From contig JAYEID010000010.1 of NCBI GenBank assembly GCA_034659915.1, forward strand, positions 660-64,659: a stretch of 64,000 bases of DNA. The letters run 5' to 3'. The position numbers and the translations under genes were made by a program. The notes beneath the pieces were generated by a model. The model saw only the letters and a program-made list of their open reading frames with translations, did no database searches and was not told where the DNA came from. Positions 16,359 through 21,286 of this stretch are shown here, piece by piece. Position 1 is the stretch's first letter. Each line of letters opens with the position of its first letter. The DNA is from Patescibacteria group bacterium (lineage in GTDB: Bacteria > Patescibacteriota > WWE3 > JAUXAW01 > JAYEID01).

Positions 16359-16865
16359 CCCCGACATCCAAAACCGACTTCGTCGGTTTCCGTCGGGGCA
16401 GGCCTTGACGAGAACTATTTTTTTTTAGTTCAATATGTCAGGGTGCCCTGAACCCAGCGTGGTTCGGGGCAGCTTGAGAACGAGTGGGCTGTTCAACATC
16501 GCCTTCGGCGATGGCACCTTGCCCCAGAACTATACCGGCAGACCGGTAAGTTCGGGGCTGCAGAGCTCATTTCGTTCGCTCTTTGAAAACTAAATAGCAG
16601 GAAACAAATTGTAAAATCCGTATAGGATACTCAATCTAACTACGGGTGTGTGGCGAATGCCTAGGCACTTGGAGCCGAGGAAGGACGTGGTATGCTGCGA
16701 TAAGCTTCGGGGAGCTGCAAACAAGCGTTATTACCCGGGGATTTCCGAATGGGGCAACCTGCTCGCGTGTAAGCGCGAGCGCCTCTGATCCGTCTTTTGG
16801 CGGAGATGGGGTGGCAACCCGGCGAAGGGAAGCATCTTAGTAGCCGGAGGAAAAGAAACCAACCT

Positions 16866-17027
16866 TGTCCCTTGGACAAGGAAATTCCAATAACCAAATT
16901 ACAAATAACAAATAAATTACAAATGACAAATTCCAAATGACAAACGGTGGAAATCCGATTTTGGGATTTTAGATTTGTTTGGAACTTGTGATTTTGGATT
17001 TTGGATTTCCTCGCCCAGGGGGCGAGG
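16866..17027 (+). repeat. 23S mini-insertion family A, copy 1 (CCTTGTCCCTTGGACAAGG ... CCTCGCCCAGGGGGCGAGG)
   Basis: Inserted between GGAAAAGAAACC and CCATTCCCTAACTAGCGGCGAGCG. The AT-rich interior aaataaattacaaatgacaaat is identical to intergenic spacer sequence at 47925-47950. Confidence 0.65.
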
Positions 17028-17070
17028 CCATTCCCTAACTAGCGGCGAGCGAACGGGGAACAGCCCAAAC

Positions 17071-17241
17071 CTTGTCCTTCGGACAAGGAAATCACAATAA
17101 TCAAATTACAAATAACAAATAAATTACAAATGACAAATTTCAAATGACAGACGGTGAGAACCCGATTTTGGGATTTTAAATTTTGTATTTGTTTGGAACT
17201 TGTGATTTTGGATTTTGGATTTCCTCGCCCGGAGGGCGAGG
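17071..17241 (+). repeat. 23S mini-insertion family A, copy 2
   Basis: About 85% identical to copy 1, tandemly arranged around the conserved helix. Confidence 0.65.
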
Positions 17242-17533
17242 TGTTGTAGGGCCAGCAGTAACGGAAGTAAGTATTTTGGTTTTTAGGAGAAAGCTACTGG
17301 AAAGGGCTACCAAAGAAAGTAATAGTCTTGTATTCAAAAAAAACCAAACTTCCAAGCTGGTTCCTGAGTACCACGAGTCACGTGAAACCTTGTGGGAATC
17401 TAGGAGGATCACCTCCTAAGGCTAAACACTCCGAGTGACCGATAGTGAACTAGTACCGTGAGGGAAAGGTGAAAAGCACCCCGGAAGGGGAGTGAAATAG
17501 AACCTGAAACCACACACTCACAAGCTTACAGAG

Positions 17534-17653
17534 CCTTGTCCGTAGGACAGGCTTACTGATTTTCGCTGATCGTGGCTGATTTTCGCTGATATAATGTCGG
17601 CGTGAATCCGTTTCCAATCGGCGTTAATCTGTACGCCCGTTCTGCGGGCGAGG
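17534..17653 (+). repeat. 23S mini-insertion family B, copy 1 (CCTTGTCCGTAGGACAGG...ctgattttcgctgat...ggcgttaatc...CGCCCGTTCTGCGGGCGAGG)
   Basis: Hairpin-bounded 120-nt block; related copies at 19087-19202 and 20886-21006. Confidence 0.65.
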
Positions 17654-18309
17654 TGATGTAGTGCCTATTGAAGAATGAACCGGCGAGTTCCTAACTGATG
17701 CAAGCTTAAGCACTTAAGGTGCGTAGGCGTAGGGAAACCAAGTTCCCCGTTTACGGGGGCAGGTCTTAAACGGGCCTTAGTATCAGTGAGGAGACCCGAA
17801 GCCAGGTGATCTAGCCATGAGCAGGGTGAGTTTCGATGAAAGTCGAAAGGAGGCCCGAACCAGTCAGTATTGCAAAACTGTTGGATGACTTGTGGCTAGC
17901 GGTAAAATGCCAATCGAACCTGGTTATAGCTGGCTCTCCCCGAAATATGTTTAAGCATAGCGCTTGCTTAGTGAGTGAGGGTAGAGCTACTGGATGGGGC
18001 TTGGGACCGAAAGGGACCAACCCCAACCAAACTCCGAATATCACTCACTTTGGCAGGTAGTCAGGCTATGGAAGATAAGTTCCATGGTCAAGAGGGAAAC
18101 AGCCCAGACCGACGGTTAAGGTCCCTAAATTCGGGCTAAGTGGTAAAGGTAGTGAAGTTACTTAGACAGCTAGGAGGTTGGCCTAGAAGCAGCCATCCTT
18201 TAAAGAGTGCGTAAAAGCTCACTAGTCTATCCTTCTCGATTTATCGGGAGGGCTATGTAGCTTTGCGCCAAAAATTTATCGGGGCTCAAGCCCGATACCG
18301 AAACCGCGG

Positions 18310-18389
18310 CCTTGTCCCTTGGACAAGGAAATTCCAAGCAACAAATTCCAAGCTCCAAACGTTTGGGATTTTCTCGCCCAGGGGGCGAG
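18310..18389 (+). repeat. 23S mini-insertion family A, short copy 3
   Basis: ccttgtcccttggacaagg...tctcgcccagggggcgagg immediately before GGTAGGGGAGCGTTCC. Confidence 0.6.
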
Positions 18390-19086: not shown

Positions 19087-19202
19087 CTTGTTCGCAGGAC
19101 AAGTCTACTGATTTCCGCTGATGGATAGCTATTTCCGCTGATTTTTATCGGCGTTAATAGGCTATGATCGGTGTTAATCGGTGGGCTCGCCCTGCGGGCG
19201 AG
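19087..19202 (+). repeat. 23S mini-insertion family B, copy 2
   Basis: cttgttcgcaggacaag...atttccgctgat...ggcgttaata...ggctcgccctgcgggcgag, after CCGGAAGGTTAA. Confidence 0.6.
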
Positions 19203-19908
19203 AAATTGAAGCCCCGGTGAACGGCGGCGGTAACTATAACCGTCCTATGGTAGCGCAATCCCTTGCCGCTTAATTGGCGGCCCGTCCGAAAGGCGTAACG
19301 AGTGGGGCACTGTCTCGACCATCGACCCGGCGAAATTGAAATATCTGTGAAGATGCGGATTTCCTGCACCAGGACAGAGAGACCCCGTGGAGCTTTACTA
19401 CCTCTTAGTGTTGGGTTAGTGTCTGGTTAGCGAAGCGTAGGCGGTAGGCTATGAATCCCGACTTCTGGGTCGGGAGGAGCCGCCCATGAGACACCGCCCT
19501 TTCCAGAGGCTAAGTCTAACTCTTGACCATTATCTGGCGGGAGGACACCGCTTGGTGGGTAGTTTGACTGGGGCGGTCGCCTTTTAAAGAGTACCAAAGG
19601 TGCCCAAAGGTTCCCTAAGCCCGGATGGAAATCGGGTGGTTAGTGTAAAGGCACAAGGGAGCCTAACTGTGAGACTGACAGGTCGAACAGTAGCGAAAGC
19701 TGGGCTTAGCGACCCTCCGAAGCCATGTGAGTGGCCCGGAGACAACGGATAAAAGTTACCCCGGGGATAACAGGTTAGTCGCGCCCGAGAGTCCGTATTG
19801 CCGGCGCGGTTCGACACCTCGATGTCGGCTCATCCTATCCTGGGGCTGAAGAAGGTCCCAAGGGTTTGGCTGTTCGCCAATTAAAAGGGTACGTGAGCTG
19901 GGTTCAGA

Positions 19909-20686
19909 CCGTTCAGTGGCTGAAGGTATTTGGCCTTTGAACCGTCTGAACCCTTTACGAATCGAGAAACGGCGGCCTAGGGAAGTAATTCCCTATGGAG
20001 AAATTGGCTCATATCGATGGAGTCCTAATTGCACAATAACCTGTCGTGCGCTAGGATAATATCGAGGGAAGCTAAGTGTACCTTATTCTGTGATGACTAC
20101 AGCGGAAAAAGCTTATATCGCAGGTTTTTTGGATGCTGATGGAAGCATTTATGTAAGGCTTAAACCGAATGAAGATTATCGATATAATTTTCAGGTTGCG
20201 CCATACATTGTCTTTTATCAGAAAAAGAACCAAGTAAGGGTTCTTGAGTATATCCAAAATCTGTTAAATATTGGTTACTTACGATACCGAAAAGACGGTA
20301 TTGTGGAGTATACGATTGGTGATGTAGCTGGTTTGCGTAGTCTTATTGCCATTGTCCGTGATTATCTGGTTCTTAAGCGAAGGCGATTATGTCTTTTGGA
20401 AGAAATATTGTCTCGAAAGGAAGATATTAATTCGCCAGAGGACTTTTTGGCTTTAGCCAAATTGATTGATAAATTTGAGGATTTGAATTATTCACAAAAA
20501 CGAACGGTGACCAGTAAGAAAGTAGCTTTGTCATTGAAAGAAAAAGGTTTGCTTTAGCCCCGTAGAGACTTCTCTAAGTTTTAGAGAGATGGCAACTTAG
20601 GTTGCCATAATACGCCAATCTCCCGTTCGCCAGTTGGCGAATTCGGGATGAAGGTATAGTCCATACTTTTAGTGATAGGAGGTTTA
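19909..20686 (+). mobile_element. group I intron in 23S at the E. coli ~2593 (I-CreI/I-CeuI) site
   Basis: Exon GAGCTGGGTTCAGA|...|TGCGTGAGACAGGTCGG. The 3' part contains GAAGGTATAGTCCA and gccccgtagagact, shared with the 16S intron. Confidence 0.65.
20090..20557 (+). CDS. LAGLIDADG homing endonuclease, single-motif I-CreI-like size (155 aa)
   Basis: IAGFLDADGSIYV motif; sits in the 23S intron at the classical I-CreI target position. Confidence 0.75.
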   Translation: MMTTAEKAYIAGFLDADGSIYVRLKPNEDYRYNFQVAPYIVFYQKKNQVRVLEYIQNLLNIGYLRYRKDGIVEYTIGDVAGLRSLIAIVRDYLVLKRRRLCLLEEILSRKEDINSPEDFLALAKLIDKFEDLNYSQKRTVTSKKVALSLKEKGLL

Positions 20687-20885
20687 TATGCGTGAGACAG
20701 GTCGGTCCCTATCCGGTGCAGGCGTTCGGTTTTTGAGGGAATCTCTTGTCAGTACGAGAGGACCACAAGGGGCAAGCCTCTAGTGCACCAGCTGTTTTTT
20801 AAAGCATCGCTGGGTAGCTACGCTTGTTGAGGATAACCGCTGAAAGCATCTAAGCGGGAAGCCCTTCCCAAGATTAAAAACCGTA

Positions 20886-21006
20886 GCCTGTCCGTAGGAC
20901 AGGCTTACTGATACTCGCTGATTTGTAGCTGATTTTCGCTGATATTGTATTGGCGTTAATCCGTTTCCAATCGGCGTAAATCGGTAAGCCCGCCCTGCGG
21001 GCGGGT
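20886..21006 (+). repeat. 23S mini-insertion family B, copy 3
   Basis: cctgtccgtaggacagg cttactgatactcgctgat...ggcgttaatccgtttccaatcggcg...cgccctgcgggcgg; replaces the tip of a domain VI helix. Confidence 0.65.
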
Positions 21007-21068
21007 GAGAGGTCCCTGGAAGACTACCAGGTTGATAGGCGGTAGGTGTAAGCTCCGCAAGGAGTGTG

Positions 21069-21180
21069 CGGATAGCGAATATACGCGAATTTAATTCTGC
21101 GAATTTTTGCGAATAAGAAAGGAAATTTTCCTTCCATTTGCATTTATTTGCTATTTTTAAATTTGCGACCGATTCGCATC
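21069..21180 (+). repeat. 23S 3'-terminal mini-insertion built of cgaat units
   Basis: Sits between GTGTAAGCTCCGCAAGGAGTGTGCGGAT and CTAGCCGAGCCGTACTAATGACCGAAGG. gcgaatttaattctgcgaat is the reverse complement of attcgcagaat(t)ta(g)attcgc at 12975-12995 upstream of 16S. Confidence 0.55.
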
Positions 21181-21286
21181 CTAGCCGAGCCGTACTAATG
21201 ACCGAAGGATTGAGTATCCTTTACGGGTTTTACAATTTAGAAAACTGCTATTTAGATCTAATGCAAGAGAAATTTGGAAGTAATAG

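What the first reader, a model, noticed from the sequence alone, without database searches (positions are those of the whole stretch)
16633..21222. 23S rRNA carries seven hairpin-bounded mini-insertions, one family sharing sequence with intergenic spacer repeats
Apart from the group I intron, the 23S gene is interrupted at seven places. The blocks are 16866-17027, 17071-17241, 18310-18389 (family A), 17534-17653, 19087-19202, 20886-21006 (family B) and 21069-21180 (family C), each 80-175 nt. Every block begins and ends with a short GC hairpin: CCTTGTCC-n-GGACAAGG at the start and CCTCGCCC-n-GGGCGAGG at the end. The AT-rich interior of family A (aaataaattacaaatgacaaat, ccaaattacaaataacaaat) occurs verbatim or nearly so in protein-gene spacers at 47925-47950 and 50965-51000. 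Family C shares the cgaat unit vocabulary with the 16S leader at 12930-13000. The same dispersed repeat material has therefore colonised rRNA helices. Whether the blocks stay in mature rRNA as expansion segments or are excised (RNase III-type intervening sequences that fragment the 23S) cannot be told from sequence.
Basis: seen in the sequence. Interest (0 to 1): 0.8.

Follow-up and report, generated by a model that had tools for sequence, protein, structure and literature searches.

The report
Capped hairpin inserts in CPR rRNA
This candidate-phyla-radiation bacterium's 23S rRNA gene carries seven extra hairpin inserts, and six belong to a 'cap-rod-cap' palindromic element family found at rRNA helix tips across the radiation, which I could not find described in the papers I could search.

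Summary
The seven blocks are real, within 3 nt of the stated coordinates. They add 891 nt to a 2,924-nt 23S core. They replace the tips of H12, H15, H25, H45, H68, H98 and H101.

Six blocks (A1-3, B1-3) share one architecture: a GC hairpin cap, a word-repeat rod, then a second cap. Block C has no caps.

The two caps are not independent hairpins. They are 19-23-nt terminal inverted repeats, their "loops" are complementary, and the predicted minimum-energy fold is one long rod on the rRNA strand.

Two collection-wide scans found the same caps 34 times, always in 16S or 23S genes or their leader, of diverse CPR lineages, plus two chance hits. None lay in about 150 kb of non-rRNA flank.

Relatives whose overlapping 23S 3' segments are 96-97% identical differ in which helices are occupied, and by which interior. 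Single "solo" caps sit at empty sites.

So these are dynamic elements, not conserved expansion segments. They are also rRNA-restricted, not generic dispersed repeats.

The spacer similarity is mostly shared low-complexity vocabulary. However, a cap-less A-type rod sits in-frame in a GH57 gene.

Whether the RNA is cut out (IVS) or retained is untested. I favour excision.

The parts
16629..21221 (+). 23S rRNA gene. It is 4,593 nt long. The core is 2,924 nt once the seven blocks and the 778-nt insertion are removed.
   Evidence: Rfam RF02541 at 2091 bits. The 3' end comes from local alignment to E. coli 23S.
16863..17027 (+). A1, a 165-nt cap-rod-cap element that replaces the H12 loop (E. coli about 227/232). 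Caps are CCTTGTCC-CTT-GGACAAGG and CCTCGCCC-AGG-GGGCGAGG.
   Evidence: (164-nt insert in the model hairpin). Rod MFE is -60.9 with z = -7.3. It is 89% identical to A2.
17070..17241 (+). A2, a 172-nt cap-rod-cap element at the H15 position (E. coli 272). Cap loops are TTC/GGA.
   Evidence: (155-nt insert inside the model's H15 hairpin). Other CPR genomes carry elements at the same site: L007, L008, L015, L017.
17534..17653 (+). B1, a 120-nt element that replaces the H25 tip (E. coli 531/554). Its caps are degenerate (a bulged T in the 5' cap, a shortened 3' cap). The interior is built from CGCTGAT and ATCGGCG words.
   Evidence: MFE is -65.7 on the sense strand against -39.8 antisense. It is 84% identical to B3.
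18310..18390 (+). A3, an 81-nt element that replaces all of H45 (E. coli 1163/1185). It is a short derivative of the A family.
   Evidence: 94% of its positions match within A1. H45 is the commonest site overall, with 14 of 58 elements.
19086..19202 (+). B2, a 117-nt element at the H68 tip (E. coli 1858/1883). Caps are ACTTGTTC-GCA-GGACAAGT and CTCGCCC-TGC-GGGCGAG.
   Evidence: Its ortholog in L022 has a 94% identical interior, but both cap loops are swapped together to CTT/AGG.
19913..20690 (+). A 778-nt insertion at E. coli about 2585/2593 that carries a LAGLIDADG_1 ORF (20090-20557). It is presumably a group I intron and is not one of the seven blocks.
   Evidence: Limits come from the intron-less relative L022. 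Pfam PF00961 scores 2e-13. No Rfam intron family reached E <= 0.01. Position 2593 is a reported CPR intron site (PMC11270868).
20886..21006 (+). B3, a 121-nt element at H98 (E. coli 2780/2800). Caps are GCCTGTCC-GTA-GGACAGGC and GCCCGCCC-TGC-GGGCGGGT.
   Evidence: It is identical in an independent assembly. In relatives the site holds a 95% identical ortholog (L020), only a short hairpin (L019), or an A-type element (L022).
21068..21182 (+). C, a 115-nt cap-less rod in the H101 loop (E. coli 2864/2869), built from GCGAAT and ATTTGC words.
   Evidence: The site is empty in L020 and L022, and L019 has an unrelated insert of about 115 nt there. MFE is -42.1 against -31.7 antisense.
16606..16636 (+). 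5' arm of the 31-bp stem that brackets the 23S gene (a precursor processing stem).
   Evidence: Inverted repeat I1, 94% complementary to 21208-21238. Its role as a processing stem is inferred from general bacterial rRNA maturation.
21208..21238 (+). 3' arm of the same 23S-bracketing stem.
   Evidence: repeat I1.
53620..53720 (+). A cap-less A-type rod inserted in-frame in the GH57 gene (52674-54194). It encodes ...TKLQIPSSK...EFGACNFEFGIS....
   Evidence: The segment is absent from the 441-460-aa homologs. It folds at -36 with z = -4.1. Both arms match A1/A2 in order. The copy in relative L042 matches the rRNA elements L022_2395 and L026_815 directly after their 5' cap, 23 of 24 nt, E 1e-6.
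47917..47943 (+). A spacer segment that shares 27 nt (96%) with the 5' arm of A1/A2.
   Evidence: E about 1e-7. Interiors from other genomes give hits of similar strength to this window's spacers.
12900..13030 (+). A rod in the 16S leader built from the same GCGAAT/ATTCGC words as block C.
   Evidence: MFE is -41.7 on the sense strand against -14.5 antisense, z = -4.7. It shares one inverted 14-mer with C.

Best explanation
Six of the seven blocks belong to a family of 80-220-nt cap-rod-cap palindromic elements that is widespread in CPR bacteria and resides in rRNA genes. Block C is a cap-less relative.

Anatomy. Each element replaces the tip of a peripheral rRNA helix. It has a 19-nt GC cap (an 8-nt arm, 3 nt, then the complementary 8-nt arm), a 29%-GC interior made of short repeated words and their complements, and a second cap.

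The two caps are terminal inverted repeats of each other, including their 3-nt 'loops'. The transcript can therefore fold as one long rod whose conserved 19-23-bp base continues the host helix. Because each cap is also self-complementary, a form with three hairpins is only about 4-7 kcal/mol less stable.

Shown: the elements are gained, lost and exchanged between helices over short evolutionary distances. Single 'solo' caps mark empty sites.

Inferred, part 1 (RNA fate): the elements behave as intervening sequences. They are transcribed within the pre-rRNA, and a double-strand-specific endonuclease of the RNase III type recognises the rod. The AT-rich interior is removed. What remains is a fragmented rRNA whose new ends are held together by the always-paired outer stem, or are protected by the cap hairpins.

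Inferred, part 2 (spread): copying between helices uses the shared caps as homology. This would work by gene conversion, or by excision and integration at solo caps, much as solo LTRs form. No transposase would be needed.
For: Anatomy and site mapping.

The rod is the minimum-energy fold. The form with forced caps is 3.1-12.4 kcal/mol less stable (mean 6.7) across 37 elements.

Termini covary as a rod. 89.4% of cells pair, 18 of 23 pairs show changes on both sides, and 0 of 500 shuffles reach this. They also covary as local caps, with 95.9% of cells paired.

An unbiased check on the loops. The genome scan used only the 5' cap as its pattern. It gave a partner 3' cap with fully complementary loops in 12 of the 13 elements that have a recognisable 3' cap. 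The metagenome scan used only the 3' cap. It gave the 5' cap with complementary loops in 19 of 19.

A constant asymmetry. Across 58 elements the outer arm has 1 mismatch and 113 G.U pairs. The inner arm has 106 mismatches and 2 G.U pairs. This asymmetry cuts the duplex's advantage over two hairpins from about 19 to about 4 kcal/mol.

Sense-strand bias. Interiors fold better on the rRNA strand in 53 of 58 elements, by a mean 7.7 kcal/mol, p = 2e-9.

rRNA restriction. 37 elements lay in about 64 kb of rRNA operon sequence, none in about 150 kb of flanks, and none in shuffled controls. The 34 elements found by the two pattern scans are all in rRNA genes or their leader. They occupy at least 16 sites in the 23S gene or its leader and 2 sites in 16S, and one also occupies a group I intron loop.

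Turnover among close relatives.

The same interior at different sites: L008 H25/H45 93%, L036 H45/H54 91%, window H12/H15 89%, L013 H63 versus L031 16S h6 83%.

Solo caps at empty tips.

Support for excision is indirect. H25 and H45 are the classical sites of RNase III-cut intervening sequences, and short uncharacterised CPR inserts there were judged 'probably' of that kind (PMC11270868). Most CPR rRNA insertions were reported absent from transcripts (Brown et al. 2015, as cited in PMC9297842). A 31-bp stem brackets the 23S gene.
Against: No RNA data were available, so removal, fragmentation and the identity of the nuclease are all inferred. No RNase III gene lies in this window, and I could not inspect the rest of the genome.

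RNase III does not need conserved sequence. Cap conservation across CPR lineages is therefore not explained by cleavage alone.

The perfect Watson-Crick local caps are not required by a simple rod model.

No transposase, no target-site duplication and no circular intermediate was seen. The recombination route is a hypothesis.

The covariation and asymmetry counts come from elements chosen by structural criteria, and those elements share ancestry, so the statistics overstate independence.

The B-family blocks are not AT-rich overall (GC 0.50-0.53).
Confidence: 0.55

Rival explanations
1. The blocks are retained expansion segments. The rods stay in the mature 23S as surface extensions of helix tips, as in eukaryotes and Asgard archaea, and the rRNA is not fragmented.
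For: All sites are tips of peripheral helices. By established nomenclature, five of them (H15, H25, H45, H98, H101) coincide with eukaryotic expansion-segment sites; the coordinates come. Strong sense-strand folding with G.U pairs fits a stable RNA. No RNase III gene was seen in the window.
Against: Occupancy and content change between relatives whose overlapping 23S 3' segments are 96-97% identical, so no structural role is conserved. Elements also sit where retention is irrelevant or awkward: a group I intron loop, the 5' leader, and a helix junction near E. coli 2830. Uninterrupted rods of about 40-85 bp would be substrates for any RNase III, by general knowledge. Reported transcript data indicate that most CPR insertions are removed.
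Confidence: 0.25
2. A generic repeat family dispersed across the genome (MITE- or REP-like) fills the intergenic spacers and has also landed in rRNA helices.
For: A 27-nt match at 96% links A1/A2 to the spacer at 47917. A cap-less A-type rod lies in the GH57 ORF. GC palindrome modules are shared between spacers, the RNase HII ORF and the apices of rods. The termini are inverted repeats.
Against: No capped element was found outside rRNA in 55 kb of this window, in about 95 kb of other flanks, or in two collection-wide scans. There are no target-site duplications. Spacer similarity is not genome-specific. Most spacers do not fold better than shuffled sequence. No transposase lies in the window.
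Confidence: 0.12
3. The rods grew in place with no mobility. Slippage of short words in one arm, compensated in the other arm, would extend them. Gene conversion between helices would then homogenise them, as proposed for eukaryotic expansion segments.
For: The arms are visibly built from repeated 6-7-nt words and their complements. This genome's spacers are also word repeats, for example runs of AAATACT at about 46715-46760. Copies within a genome are more alike than most orthologous copies.
Against: Slippage does not predict 23-nt termini that are identical across CPR lineages and across at least 18 sites. It also does not predict the same interior at a 16S site in one lineage and a 23S site in another (83%), clean empty sites in close relatives, or a copy in a protein-coding gene. 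Slippage probably does contribute to length variation.
Confidence: 0.12
4. The blocks are an assembly artefact or chimera of a metagenome-assembled genome.
For: Contigs of relatives and the Logan contig break inside the 23S gene, close to repeats.
Against: An independent assembly is 100% identical across B3 and C. Orthologous elements occur in separately assembled relatives. Removing the blocks restores a 2,924-nt core that aligns end to end with E. coli. The same architecture appears in more than 30 unrelated assemblies.
Confidence: 0.02

Closest known systems
Bacterial 23S rRNA intervening sequences (helices 9, 25 and 45 in Salmonella, Leptospira, Campylobacter, Coxiella and others), which RNase III excises without religation
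   Same: Both are extra sequence that replaces a helix tip, including the classical H25 and H45 sites. In both, the ends pair into an extended stem. Both are distributed sporadically among close relatives. Many are richer in A+T than the surrounding rRNA.
   Different: Here there are seven in one gene, and at least 16 sites in the 23S gene or its leader plus 2 in 16S across the family. The termini are conserved, self-palindromic caps. Solo caps mark empty sites. The family is also present in an intron loop and a leader. No ORF is present. Cleavage has not been tested.
'Uncharacterized short ISs' (<200 bp, no intron, no ORF) in CPR rRNA genes (Tsurumaki et al. 2024, PMC11270868; Brown et al. 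2015)
   Same: These are almost certainly the same objects. They are short, ORF-less inserts that are frequent at sites 23IS2 and 23IS4 and dominate in Saccharibacteria.
   Different: That paper's main text does not use the words hairpin, palindrome or repeat, and I saw no description there of conserved termini or of families shared across sites. The cap-rod-cap architecture, the covariation, the solo caps and the turnover between near-identical relatives are what this analysis adds.
Eukaryotic and archaeal rRNA expansion segments with 'compensatory slippage' (Hancock and Dover; recalled from memory)
   Same: The helix tips overlap (H15, H25, H45, H98, H101). The arms show cryptic simplicity. 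Different segments within one genome resemble each other.
   Different: Here there is rapid presence/absence turnover, conserved termini, and the same element at different sites in different lineages. Retention in the ribosome is not established.
Rickettsia palindromic elements and other MITEs (review PMC10969869)
   Same: Both are palindromes of about 100-170 bp that tolerate insertion into functional genes. Cap-less rods and GC palindromes sit in-frame in the GH57 and RNase HII genes of this window.
   Different: No target-site duplication or partner transposase was found. The capped form is confined to rRNA genes. That MITE review does not mention rRNA at all. Sequence similarity to the Rickettsia elements was not tested.
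Solo-LTR formation, as an analogy for the mechanism only
   Same: Two flanking repeats (the caps) could recombine to delete the interior and leave one repeat. Pure 5'-type, pure 3'-type and left-5'/right-3' hybrid solo caps are all seen.
   Different: The repeats are only 19 nt long and are palindromic. No recombination event was observed directly.

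Membership tests
23S rRNA intervening sequence (RNase III type) | Extra sequence replaces the tip of a variable helix (classically H9, H25 or H45) relative to E. coli | tested here: met
   B1 is at E. 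coli 531/554 (H25) and A3 at 1163/1185 (H45). The five other blocks are also at helix tips.
23S rRNA intervening sequence (RNase III type) | The ends of the insert pair to form an extended double-stranded stem | tested here: met
   The minimum-energy fold is a rod for all seven blocks. The rod base is supported by covariation.
23S rRNA intervening sequence (RNase III type) | Sporadic presence among close relatives | tested here: met
   Occupancy differs in L019, L020 and L022.
23S rRNA intervening sequence (RNase III type) | Excised from the precursor by RNase III without religation, giving a fragmented 23S | not testable with these tools
   No RNA data were available.
Retained rRNA expansion segment | Conserved presence at a given helix within a lineage | tested here: not met
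   H98, H101, H45, the H96 tip and the junction near E. coli 2830 differ between relatives whose 23S is 86-97% identical.
Retained rRNA expansion segment | Present in the mature rRNA of the ribosome | not testable with these tools
   This needs RNA-seq, a gel or cryo-EM.
MITE | Terminal inverted repeats | tested here: met
   The 19-23-nt termini are complementary, loops included.
MITE | Target-site duplication flanking the element | tested here: not met
   No direct repeats flank any of the 58 elements.
MITE | Dispersed copies in intergenic DNA, and a related autonomous IS with matching ends | tested here: not met
   No capped copy was found in about 150 kb of non-rRNA DNA. No transposase lies in the window. 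The whole genome was not examined.
REP / REPIN | Extragenic palindromes associated with a RAYT transposase | tested here: not met
   The elements lie inside rRNA genes, and no RAYT-like gene is in the window. A genome-wide check was not possible.
Rickettsia-type palindromic elements | A palindromic element inserted in-frame in protein-coding genes | tested here: met
   This holds for the cap-less A-type rod in GH57 and for a GC palindrome in RNase HII. It does not hold for the capped rRNA form.
Rickettsia-type palindromic elements | Sequence homology to the described RPE families | not tested
   No RPE reference sequences were compared.
Group I / group II intron | A catalytic core recognisable by covariance models | tested here: not met
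   No intron family was reported anywhere in the window at gathering score. The blocks are 81-172 nt and fold as simple rods.
Archaeal bulge-helix-bulge intron | Two 3-nt bulges separated by a 4-bp helix at the exon-intron junctions | tested here: not met
   The rod bases are continuous helices with two single A.C mismatches and no bulges.

The most novel reading that the evidence does not exclude
CPR bacteria carry a self-contained class of mobile element that specialises in rRNA. It is a cap-rod-cap palindrome whose bistable caps may do two jobs. At the DNA level they may act as landing pads, so that elements are copied, swapped or deleted between helix tips by recombination, leaving solo caps and needing no transposase. 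At the RNA level they may act as a processing and end-protection module that lets the ribosome tolerate up to seven insertions per gene. The cap-less rods of the same family, and related GC palindromes, also insert in-frame into protein-coding genes, much as Rickettsia palindromic elements do.
Probability: 0.35. Interest if true: 0.85.

Novelty: new variant of a known kind. Interest (0 to 1): 0.72.

Why it matters
CPR bacteria are known for unusually interrupted rRNA genes. The introns and their homing endonucleases have been characterised, but the many short ORF-less inserts have been left as 'uncharacterized, probably IVS'.

This analysis shows that a large share of them form one structured family. 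The family has conserved, self-palindromic termini, a predictable fold, a strict orientation, solo-cap footprints and fast turnover.

That gives a concrete handle on four things:
- **Tolerance and processing.** How ultra-small cells tolerate and process heavily interrupted rRNA.
- **Spread without an enzyme.** How non-coding elements spread when they encode no enzyme of their own.
- **Detection and assembly.** Why CPR 16S and 23S genes defeat primers and break assemblies.
- **Annotation.** Masking the elements with a covariance model would improve rRNA annotation.

The question is directly testable in cultivable Saccharibacteria, which carry the same caps at H45 and H63.

Tried and rejected
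- **Global alignment.** A global MAFFT alignment of the raw 23S against E. coli misplaced the inserts. I replaced it with local alignment of each flank.
- **Rfam on many loci.** A single Rfam call on 16 loci failed internally. I classified rRNA content by BLAST against the window's core rRNA and E. coli instead.
- **Homing-endonuclease look-up.** An exact look-up of the 23S-intron endonuclease found nothing. The downstream S1 gene gave the syntenic relatives.
- **GH57 against solved structures.** PDB homologs were too distant to test the GH57 insertion. A database search plus alignment settled it.
- **Genome-specific vocabulary.** I tested whether rod interiors share words specifically with their own genome's spacers, and rejected it. 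Shared 12-mers and best local hits are no higher for this window's elements than for elements from other genomes. The apparent self-match in L017 was a second 23S copy of the element, not spacer DNA.
- **Spacers as hairpin elements.** Most spacers do not fold better than shuffled sequence.
- **LeuRS 18-mer.** The LeuRS ORF at 36228 shares the 18-mer CAAATACCAAGTTCCAAA with the GH57 rod. I considered it a third in-frame copy and set it aside. By recalled comparison with other LeuRS sequences there is no length excess, but this was not tested against homologs.
- **First detector.** My first automatic detector missed A3 and B2 because G.U pairs in over-extended stems were counted. This was fixed.
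- **Viral scans.** Scans of viral contigs for both cap types found nothing.
- **Literature search on the motif.** A full-text search for the cap sequences returned only unrelated papers.
- **Brown et al. 2015.** The paper could not be read. It is cited only through PMC9297842.
- **Group I intron.** No Rfam intron family reached E <= 0.01 in 19850-20750, so 'group I intron' remains a presumption.
- **'Gammaproteobacteria' labels.** The MAGs labelled Gammaproteobacteria (L004, L005) are not evidence for the family outside CPR. L004's 16S is only 71% identical to E. coli.

Full report
**What is there**

The window holds an rRNA operon of a Patescibacteria (CPR) metagenome-assembled genome. The 16S lies at 13148-15458 and is interrupted by an insertion carrying a LAGLIDADG_2 ORF. 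Two tRNAs follow, then the 23S from 16629, then the 5S at 21290-21405. The source label comes from the exact protein match.

Local alignment of each flank to E. coli 23S places the seven blocks as follows. Helix names follow the standard nomenclature from memory; the coordinates are computed.

| Block | Window coordinates | E. coli position | Helix |
|---|---|---|---|
| A1 | 16863-17027 | 227/232 | H12 loop |
| A2 | 17070-17241 | 272 | H15 position |
| B1 | 17534-17653 | 531/554 | H25 |
| A3 | 18310-18390 | 1163/1185 | H45 |
| B2 | 19086-19202 | 1858/1883 | H68 tip |
| B3 | 20886-21006 | 2780/2800 | H98 |
| C | 21068-21182 | 2864/2869 | H101 loop |

A further 778-nt insertion at 19913-20690 carries a LAGLIDADG_1 ORF. 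Its limits come from an intron-less relative. No Rfam intron family reached E <= 0.01 there.

Without the blocks and that insertion the gene is 2,924 nt, against 2,903 nt for E. coli. An independent Logan assembly is identical over 20845-29893, which includes B3 and C.

**Checking the observation**

The family structure holds. A1/A2 are 89% identical, A3 is a short derivative (94% of its positions match within A1), B1/B3 are 84% identical, and B2 is 74-75% identical to both. The two hairpin motifs occur 3 and 4 times, against none in 100 shuffles, and only inside the 23S.

Block C has no caps, so 'every block' is an overstatement.

More importantly, the two 'terminal hairpins' are not independent. 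For every block the predicted minimum-energy fold on the rRNA strand is a single rod, in which the left arm of the first cap pairs with the right arm of the last cap. The rRNA strand folds much better than the complement, for example -65.7 against -39.8 kcal/mol for B1. This is because many pairs are G.U.

**The family is CPR-wide and rRNA-restricted**

I scanned one genome per species (185,579 species) for the 5' cap plus AAAT. This gave 16 loci.
- Fifteen lie inside 16S or 23S genes of Saccharibacteria, Chisholm-, Davies-, Shapiro- and Woesebacteria, CPR3 and unclassified Patescibacteria.
- One is a chance hit in a Sphingobacteriaceae protein-coding region.
- Of the 13 with a recognisable 3' cap about 100-200 nt downstream, 12 have fully complementary loops. 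The 3' cap was not in the search pattern.

The reciprocal scan of JGI metagenomes used the 3' cap only. It gave 20 matches.
- Nineteen are in rRNA genes or a 23S leader. Every one has the unsearched 5' cap and a complementary loop.
- One is a terminator-like chance hit.

A structure-based detector looks for two triloop hairpins whose 15 central nucleotides are mutually complementary. On the rRNA sense strand it found 37 elements in the first 20 sequences. It also found 4 on the antisense strand, which are the same elements read backwards, and none in shuffled sequence. All 37 lie in about 64 kb of rRNA operon sequence, and none in about 150 kb of flanking DNA (with the four edge cases resolved from flanks).

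With the metagenome loci added, the non-redundant catalogue holds 58 elements of 81-221 nt (median 168). They occupy at least 16 sites in the 23S gene or its leader: the 5' leader, H9, H12, H15, H25, about E. coli 1113, H45, about 1375, about 1419, H63, H68, about 2126, the H96 tip, H98 and the junction near 2830. They also occupy two 16S sites, h6 and h9.

Scans of viral contigs found none.

**Structure and its constraints**

I aligned 34 distinct pairs of termini.
- The rod pairing has 89% of cells paired and double changes at 18 of 23 pairs. No shuffle of 500 reaches this, and slid registers drop to about 45% paired.
- The local caps are also supported, with 96% of cells paired.
- These counts are inflated by my selection criteria and by shared ancestry. 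The loop complementarity in the two pattern-ascertained sets is not subject to the selection bias.

A variant cap shows co-variation of all four positions. The 5' cap ...TGTGC-nnn-GCACA... always travels with the 3' cap ...CGCGC-nnn-GCGCG....

The differences between the two caps are transitions, arranged in a constant way. Over 58 elements the outer arm has 1 mismatch and 113 wobbles, and the inner arm has 106 mismatches and 2 wobbles. In this set, then, the elements almost always have the same orientation relative to rRNA transcription.

The consequence is quantitative. For the isolated termini, two hairpins score -26.9 kcal/mol and the duplex -31.2. With identical caps the duplex would win by about 19 kcal/mol. 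For whole elements the rod wins by a mean 6.7 kcal/mol.

Interiors with the caps removed are 29% G+C. They fold better on the sense strand in 53 of 58 cases (p = 2e-9). I read this as selection on the transcript. Leading-strand G/T enrichment could also contribute.

**Dynamics**

The S1 gene downstream of the 5S is syntenic in three relatives. L019 and L020 are 96-97% identical to the window over their overlapping 23S 3' segments, and L022's 23S is 86% identical. Contigs of L019 and L020 start within the 23S 3' region, so some sites cannot be compared (shown as 'not covered').

| Site | Window | L019 | L020 | L022 |
|---|---|---|---|---|
| H45 | A3 | not covered | not covered | 177-nt element, variant caps, GCGAAT-word interior |
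| H68 | B2 | not covered | not covered | ortholog, interior 94% identical, both cap loops changed together from GCA/TGC to CTT/AGG |
| E. coli about 2593 | insertion with endonuclease ORF | not covered | ORF replaced by a capped word-rod | no insertion |
| H96 tip | empty | not covered | B-type element | empty |
| H98 | B3 | 23-nt hairpin only | B3 ortholog (95%) | A-type element |
| Junction near E. coli 2830 | empty | capped element | a different capped element | empty |
| H101 | C | unrelated insert of about 115 nt | empty | empty |

Interiors are shared between different sites within a genome: L008 H25/H45 93%, L036 H45/H54 91%, window H12/H15 89%. They are also shared between different sites in different genomes, including 23S H63 against 16S h6 at 83%. 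No target-site duplication flanks any element, and the element usually replaces the whole native hairpin.

Empty tips often hold a single cap.
- A pure 5'-type cap: L040 H25, CCTTGTGC-TTC-GCACAAGG.
- A pure 3'-type cap: L014 H45, CCTCGCGC-TAC-GCGCGAGG.
- Hybrids with a 5'-type left arm and a partly 3'-type right arm: L009 H45, L012 16S h6, L019 H98.

These are the products expected if the two caps recombine. They could equally be entry sites.

**Link to non-rRNA DNA**

The 27-nt match to the spacer at 47917 is real. However, rod interiors from other genomes hit this window's spacers nearly as strongly, counts of shared 12-mers show no excess for the same genome, and most spacers are non-folding tandem word repeats. 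'Same vocabulary' is therefore weak evidence.

A stronger link lies in the GH57 gene. Its residues about 316-350 are an insertion absent from the 441-460-aa homologs. The insertion is encoded by a hairpin (z = -4.1) whose two arms match A1/A2 in order. In relative L042 its 5' arm matches, at 23 of 24 nt, the segment immediately after the 5' cap of the rRNA elements L022_2395 and L026_815 (E 1e-6). This is a cap-less A-type rod sitting in-frame.

**Mechanism**

Shown: the anatomy, the orientation, the covariation, the rRNA restriction, the turnover and the solo caps.

Inferred, at about 55-60%: the transcript rod is a substrate for a double-strand-specific endonuclease and the interior is removed, as in classical intervening sequences. 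The grounds are indirect.
- H25 and H45 are the classical sites, and the authors who surveyed CPR rRNA inserts reached the same tentative view (PMC11270868).
- Most CPR insertions were reported absent from transcripts (Brown et al. 2015, via PMC9297842).
- The rods are long near-perfect duplexes.
- Only the outer stem is kept strictly paired. That is what one would expect if it alone must hold the two fragments together after cleavage.
- The perfect local caps could then protect the new ends.

Inferred, with lower confidence: copying between helices uses the shared caps as homology.

The main rival is retention as expansion segments, at about 25%.

**Comparison with what is known, and novelty**

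Short ORF-less inserts in CPR rRNA are already reported, but as 'uncharacterized'. The main text of the systematic survey (PMC11270868) does not use the words hairpin, palindrome or repeat. A full-text search for the cap sequences found nothing relevant. A 2024 review of prokaryotic MITEs does not mention rRNA.

The library holds only open-access papers, and I could not read Brown et al. 2015.

I therefore rate this a new variant of a known kind: the IVS or short rRNA insertion. What it adds is a defined family architecture.

Noticed in passing
window 10315-10450 (inside the RNase HII ORF, 9970-10707): An in-frame, nested GC-rich palindrome encodes about 38-45 extra residues (...QAPGAYADLPAGKAGLAPGA...). 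These are absent from solved RNase HII structures. MFE is -88 kcal/mol for 10270-10450. It contains the CCTGCC-n-GGCAGG module.
   Followed up: partly
window 60164-60203 and 56357-56374; L011 about 1381-1400; L015 about 5132-5152: A GC palindrome module (CCTGCC...GGCAGG) recurs in a spacer, in a tRNA-cluster spacer, in the RNase HII insertion, and at the apex of rRNA rods in other CPR genomes.
   Followed up: partly
window 15061, 15517, 18236, 18685, 18963 and 56336: The mini-hairpin CCGATTTATCGG occurs 6 times against 0.23 expected. It caps small helix tips in 16S and 23S, and also lies in the ITS and a tRNA-cluster spacer. Similar CCCGAT...ATCGGG tips occur in L007 (H45), L015, L017 and the L020 intron.
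   Followed up: partly
L020 58-180 (the 23S insertion at E. coli about 2593 in a close relative): In this relative a capped AT-word rod replaces the LAGLIDADG ORF found in the window's insertion. The flanking intron sequence is conserved.
   Followed up: partly
L041 1270-1330 (the GH57 gene of relative GCA_964467235.1): A second, GC-rich palindrome is nested inside the in-frame A-type rod. It encodes PPARLAAAPAKRAGGP. In other relatives the GH57 alignment shows a second insertion hot spot at columns 187-225.
   Followed up: partly
L041 1-276 and L042 1-276: In two relatives a gene matching PF05635 (23S rRNA intervening-sequence protein family) lies immediately upstream of GH57. In the window that position is a 270-nt spacer (52404-52673).
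   Followed up: no
window 58623-59033: A 136-aa PD-(D/E)XK nuclease ORF (PF13366) sits between nusG (57796-58332) and rplK (59103-59531). Those two genes are normally adjacent. The ORF is flanked by word-repeat spacers.
   Followed up: no
window 15847-15940 and 16356-16450: A repeat of about 95 nt, identical in both copies, follows each of the two ITS tRNAs. It includes a GC hairpin and a T-run.
   Followed up: no
window 13148-15458: The 16S scores best against the archaeal SSU model in Rfam. It carries an insertion of about 850 nt (about 14160-15010) with a LAGLIDADG_2 ORF (14222-14878). It has no capped element.
   Followed up: partly
window 46715-46760, 48130-48160 and 55310-55700: The intergenic spacers are largely tandem 6-7-nt word repeats, for example AAATACT repeated 7 times, along with ATTCGC-type words. 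They do not fold better than shuffled sequence.
   Followed up: partly
L004 and L005 (MAGs labelled 'uncultured Gammaproteobacteria'): These contigs carry capped elements. The L004 16S is only 71% identical to E. coli 16S, about as distant as the window's own CPR 16S (71.5%). This suggests mis-binned contigs.
   Followed up: partly
window 36212-36250 (LeuRS ORF): An 18-mer, CAAATACCAAGTTCCAAA (encoding QIPSSK), is shared exactly with the GH57 rod. The LeuRS length here looks normal, so this may be chance or a remnant.
   Followed up: no
window 43860-44010 and 55880-56020: Very stable GC-rich structures (-74 and -67 kcal/mol) lie in the spacers of two tRNA clusters.
   Followed up: no
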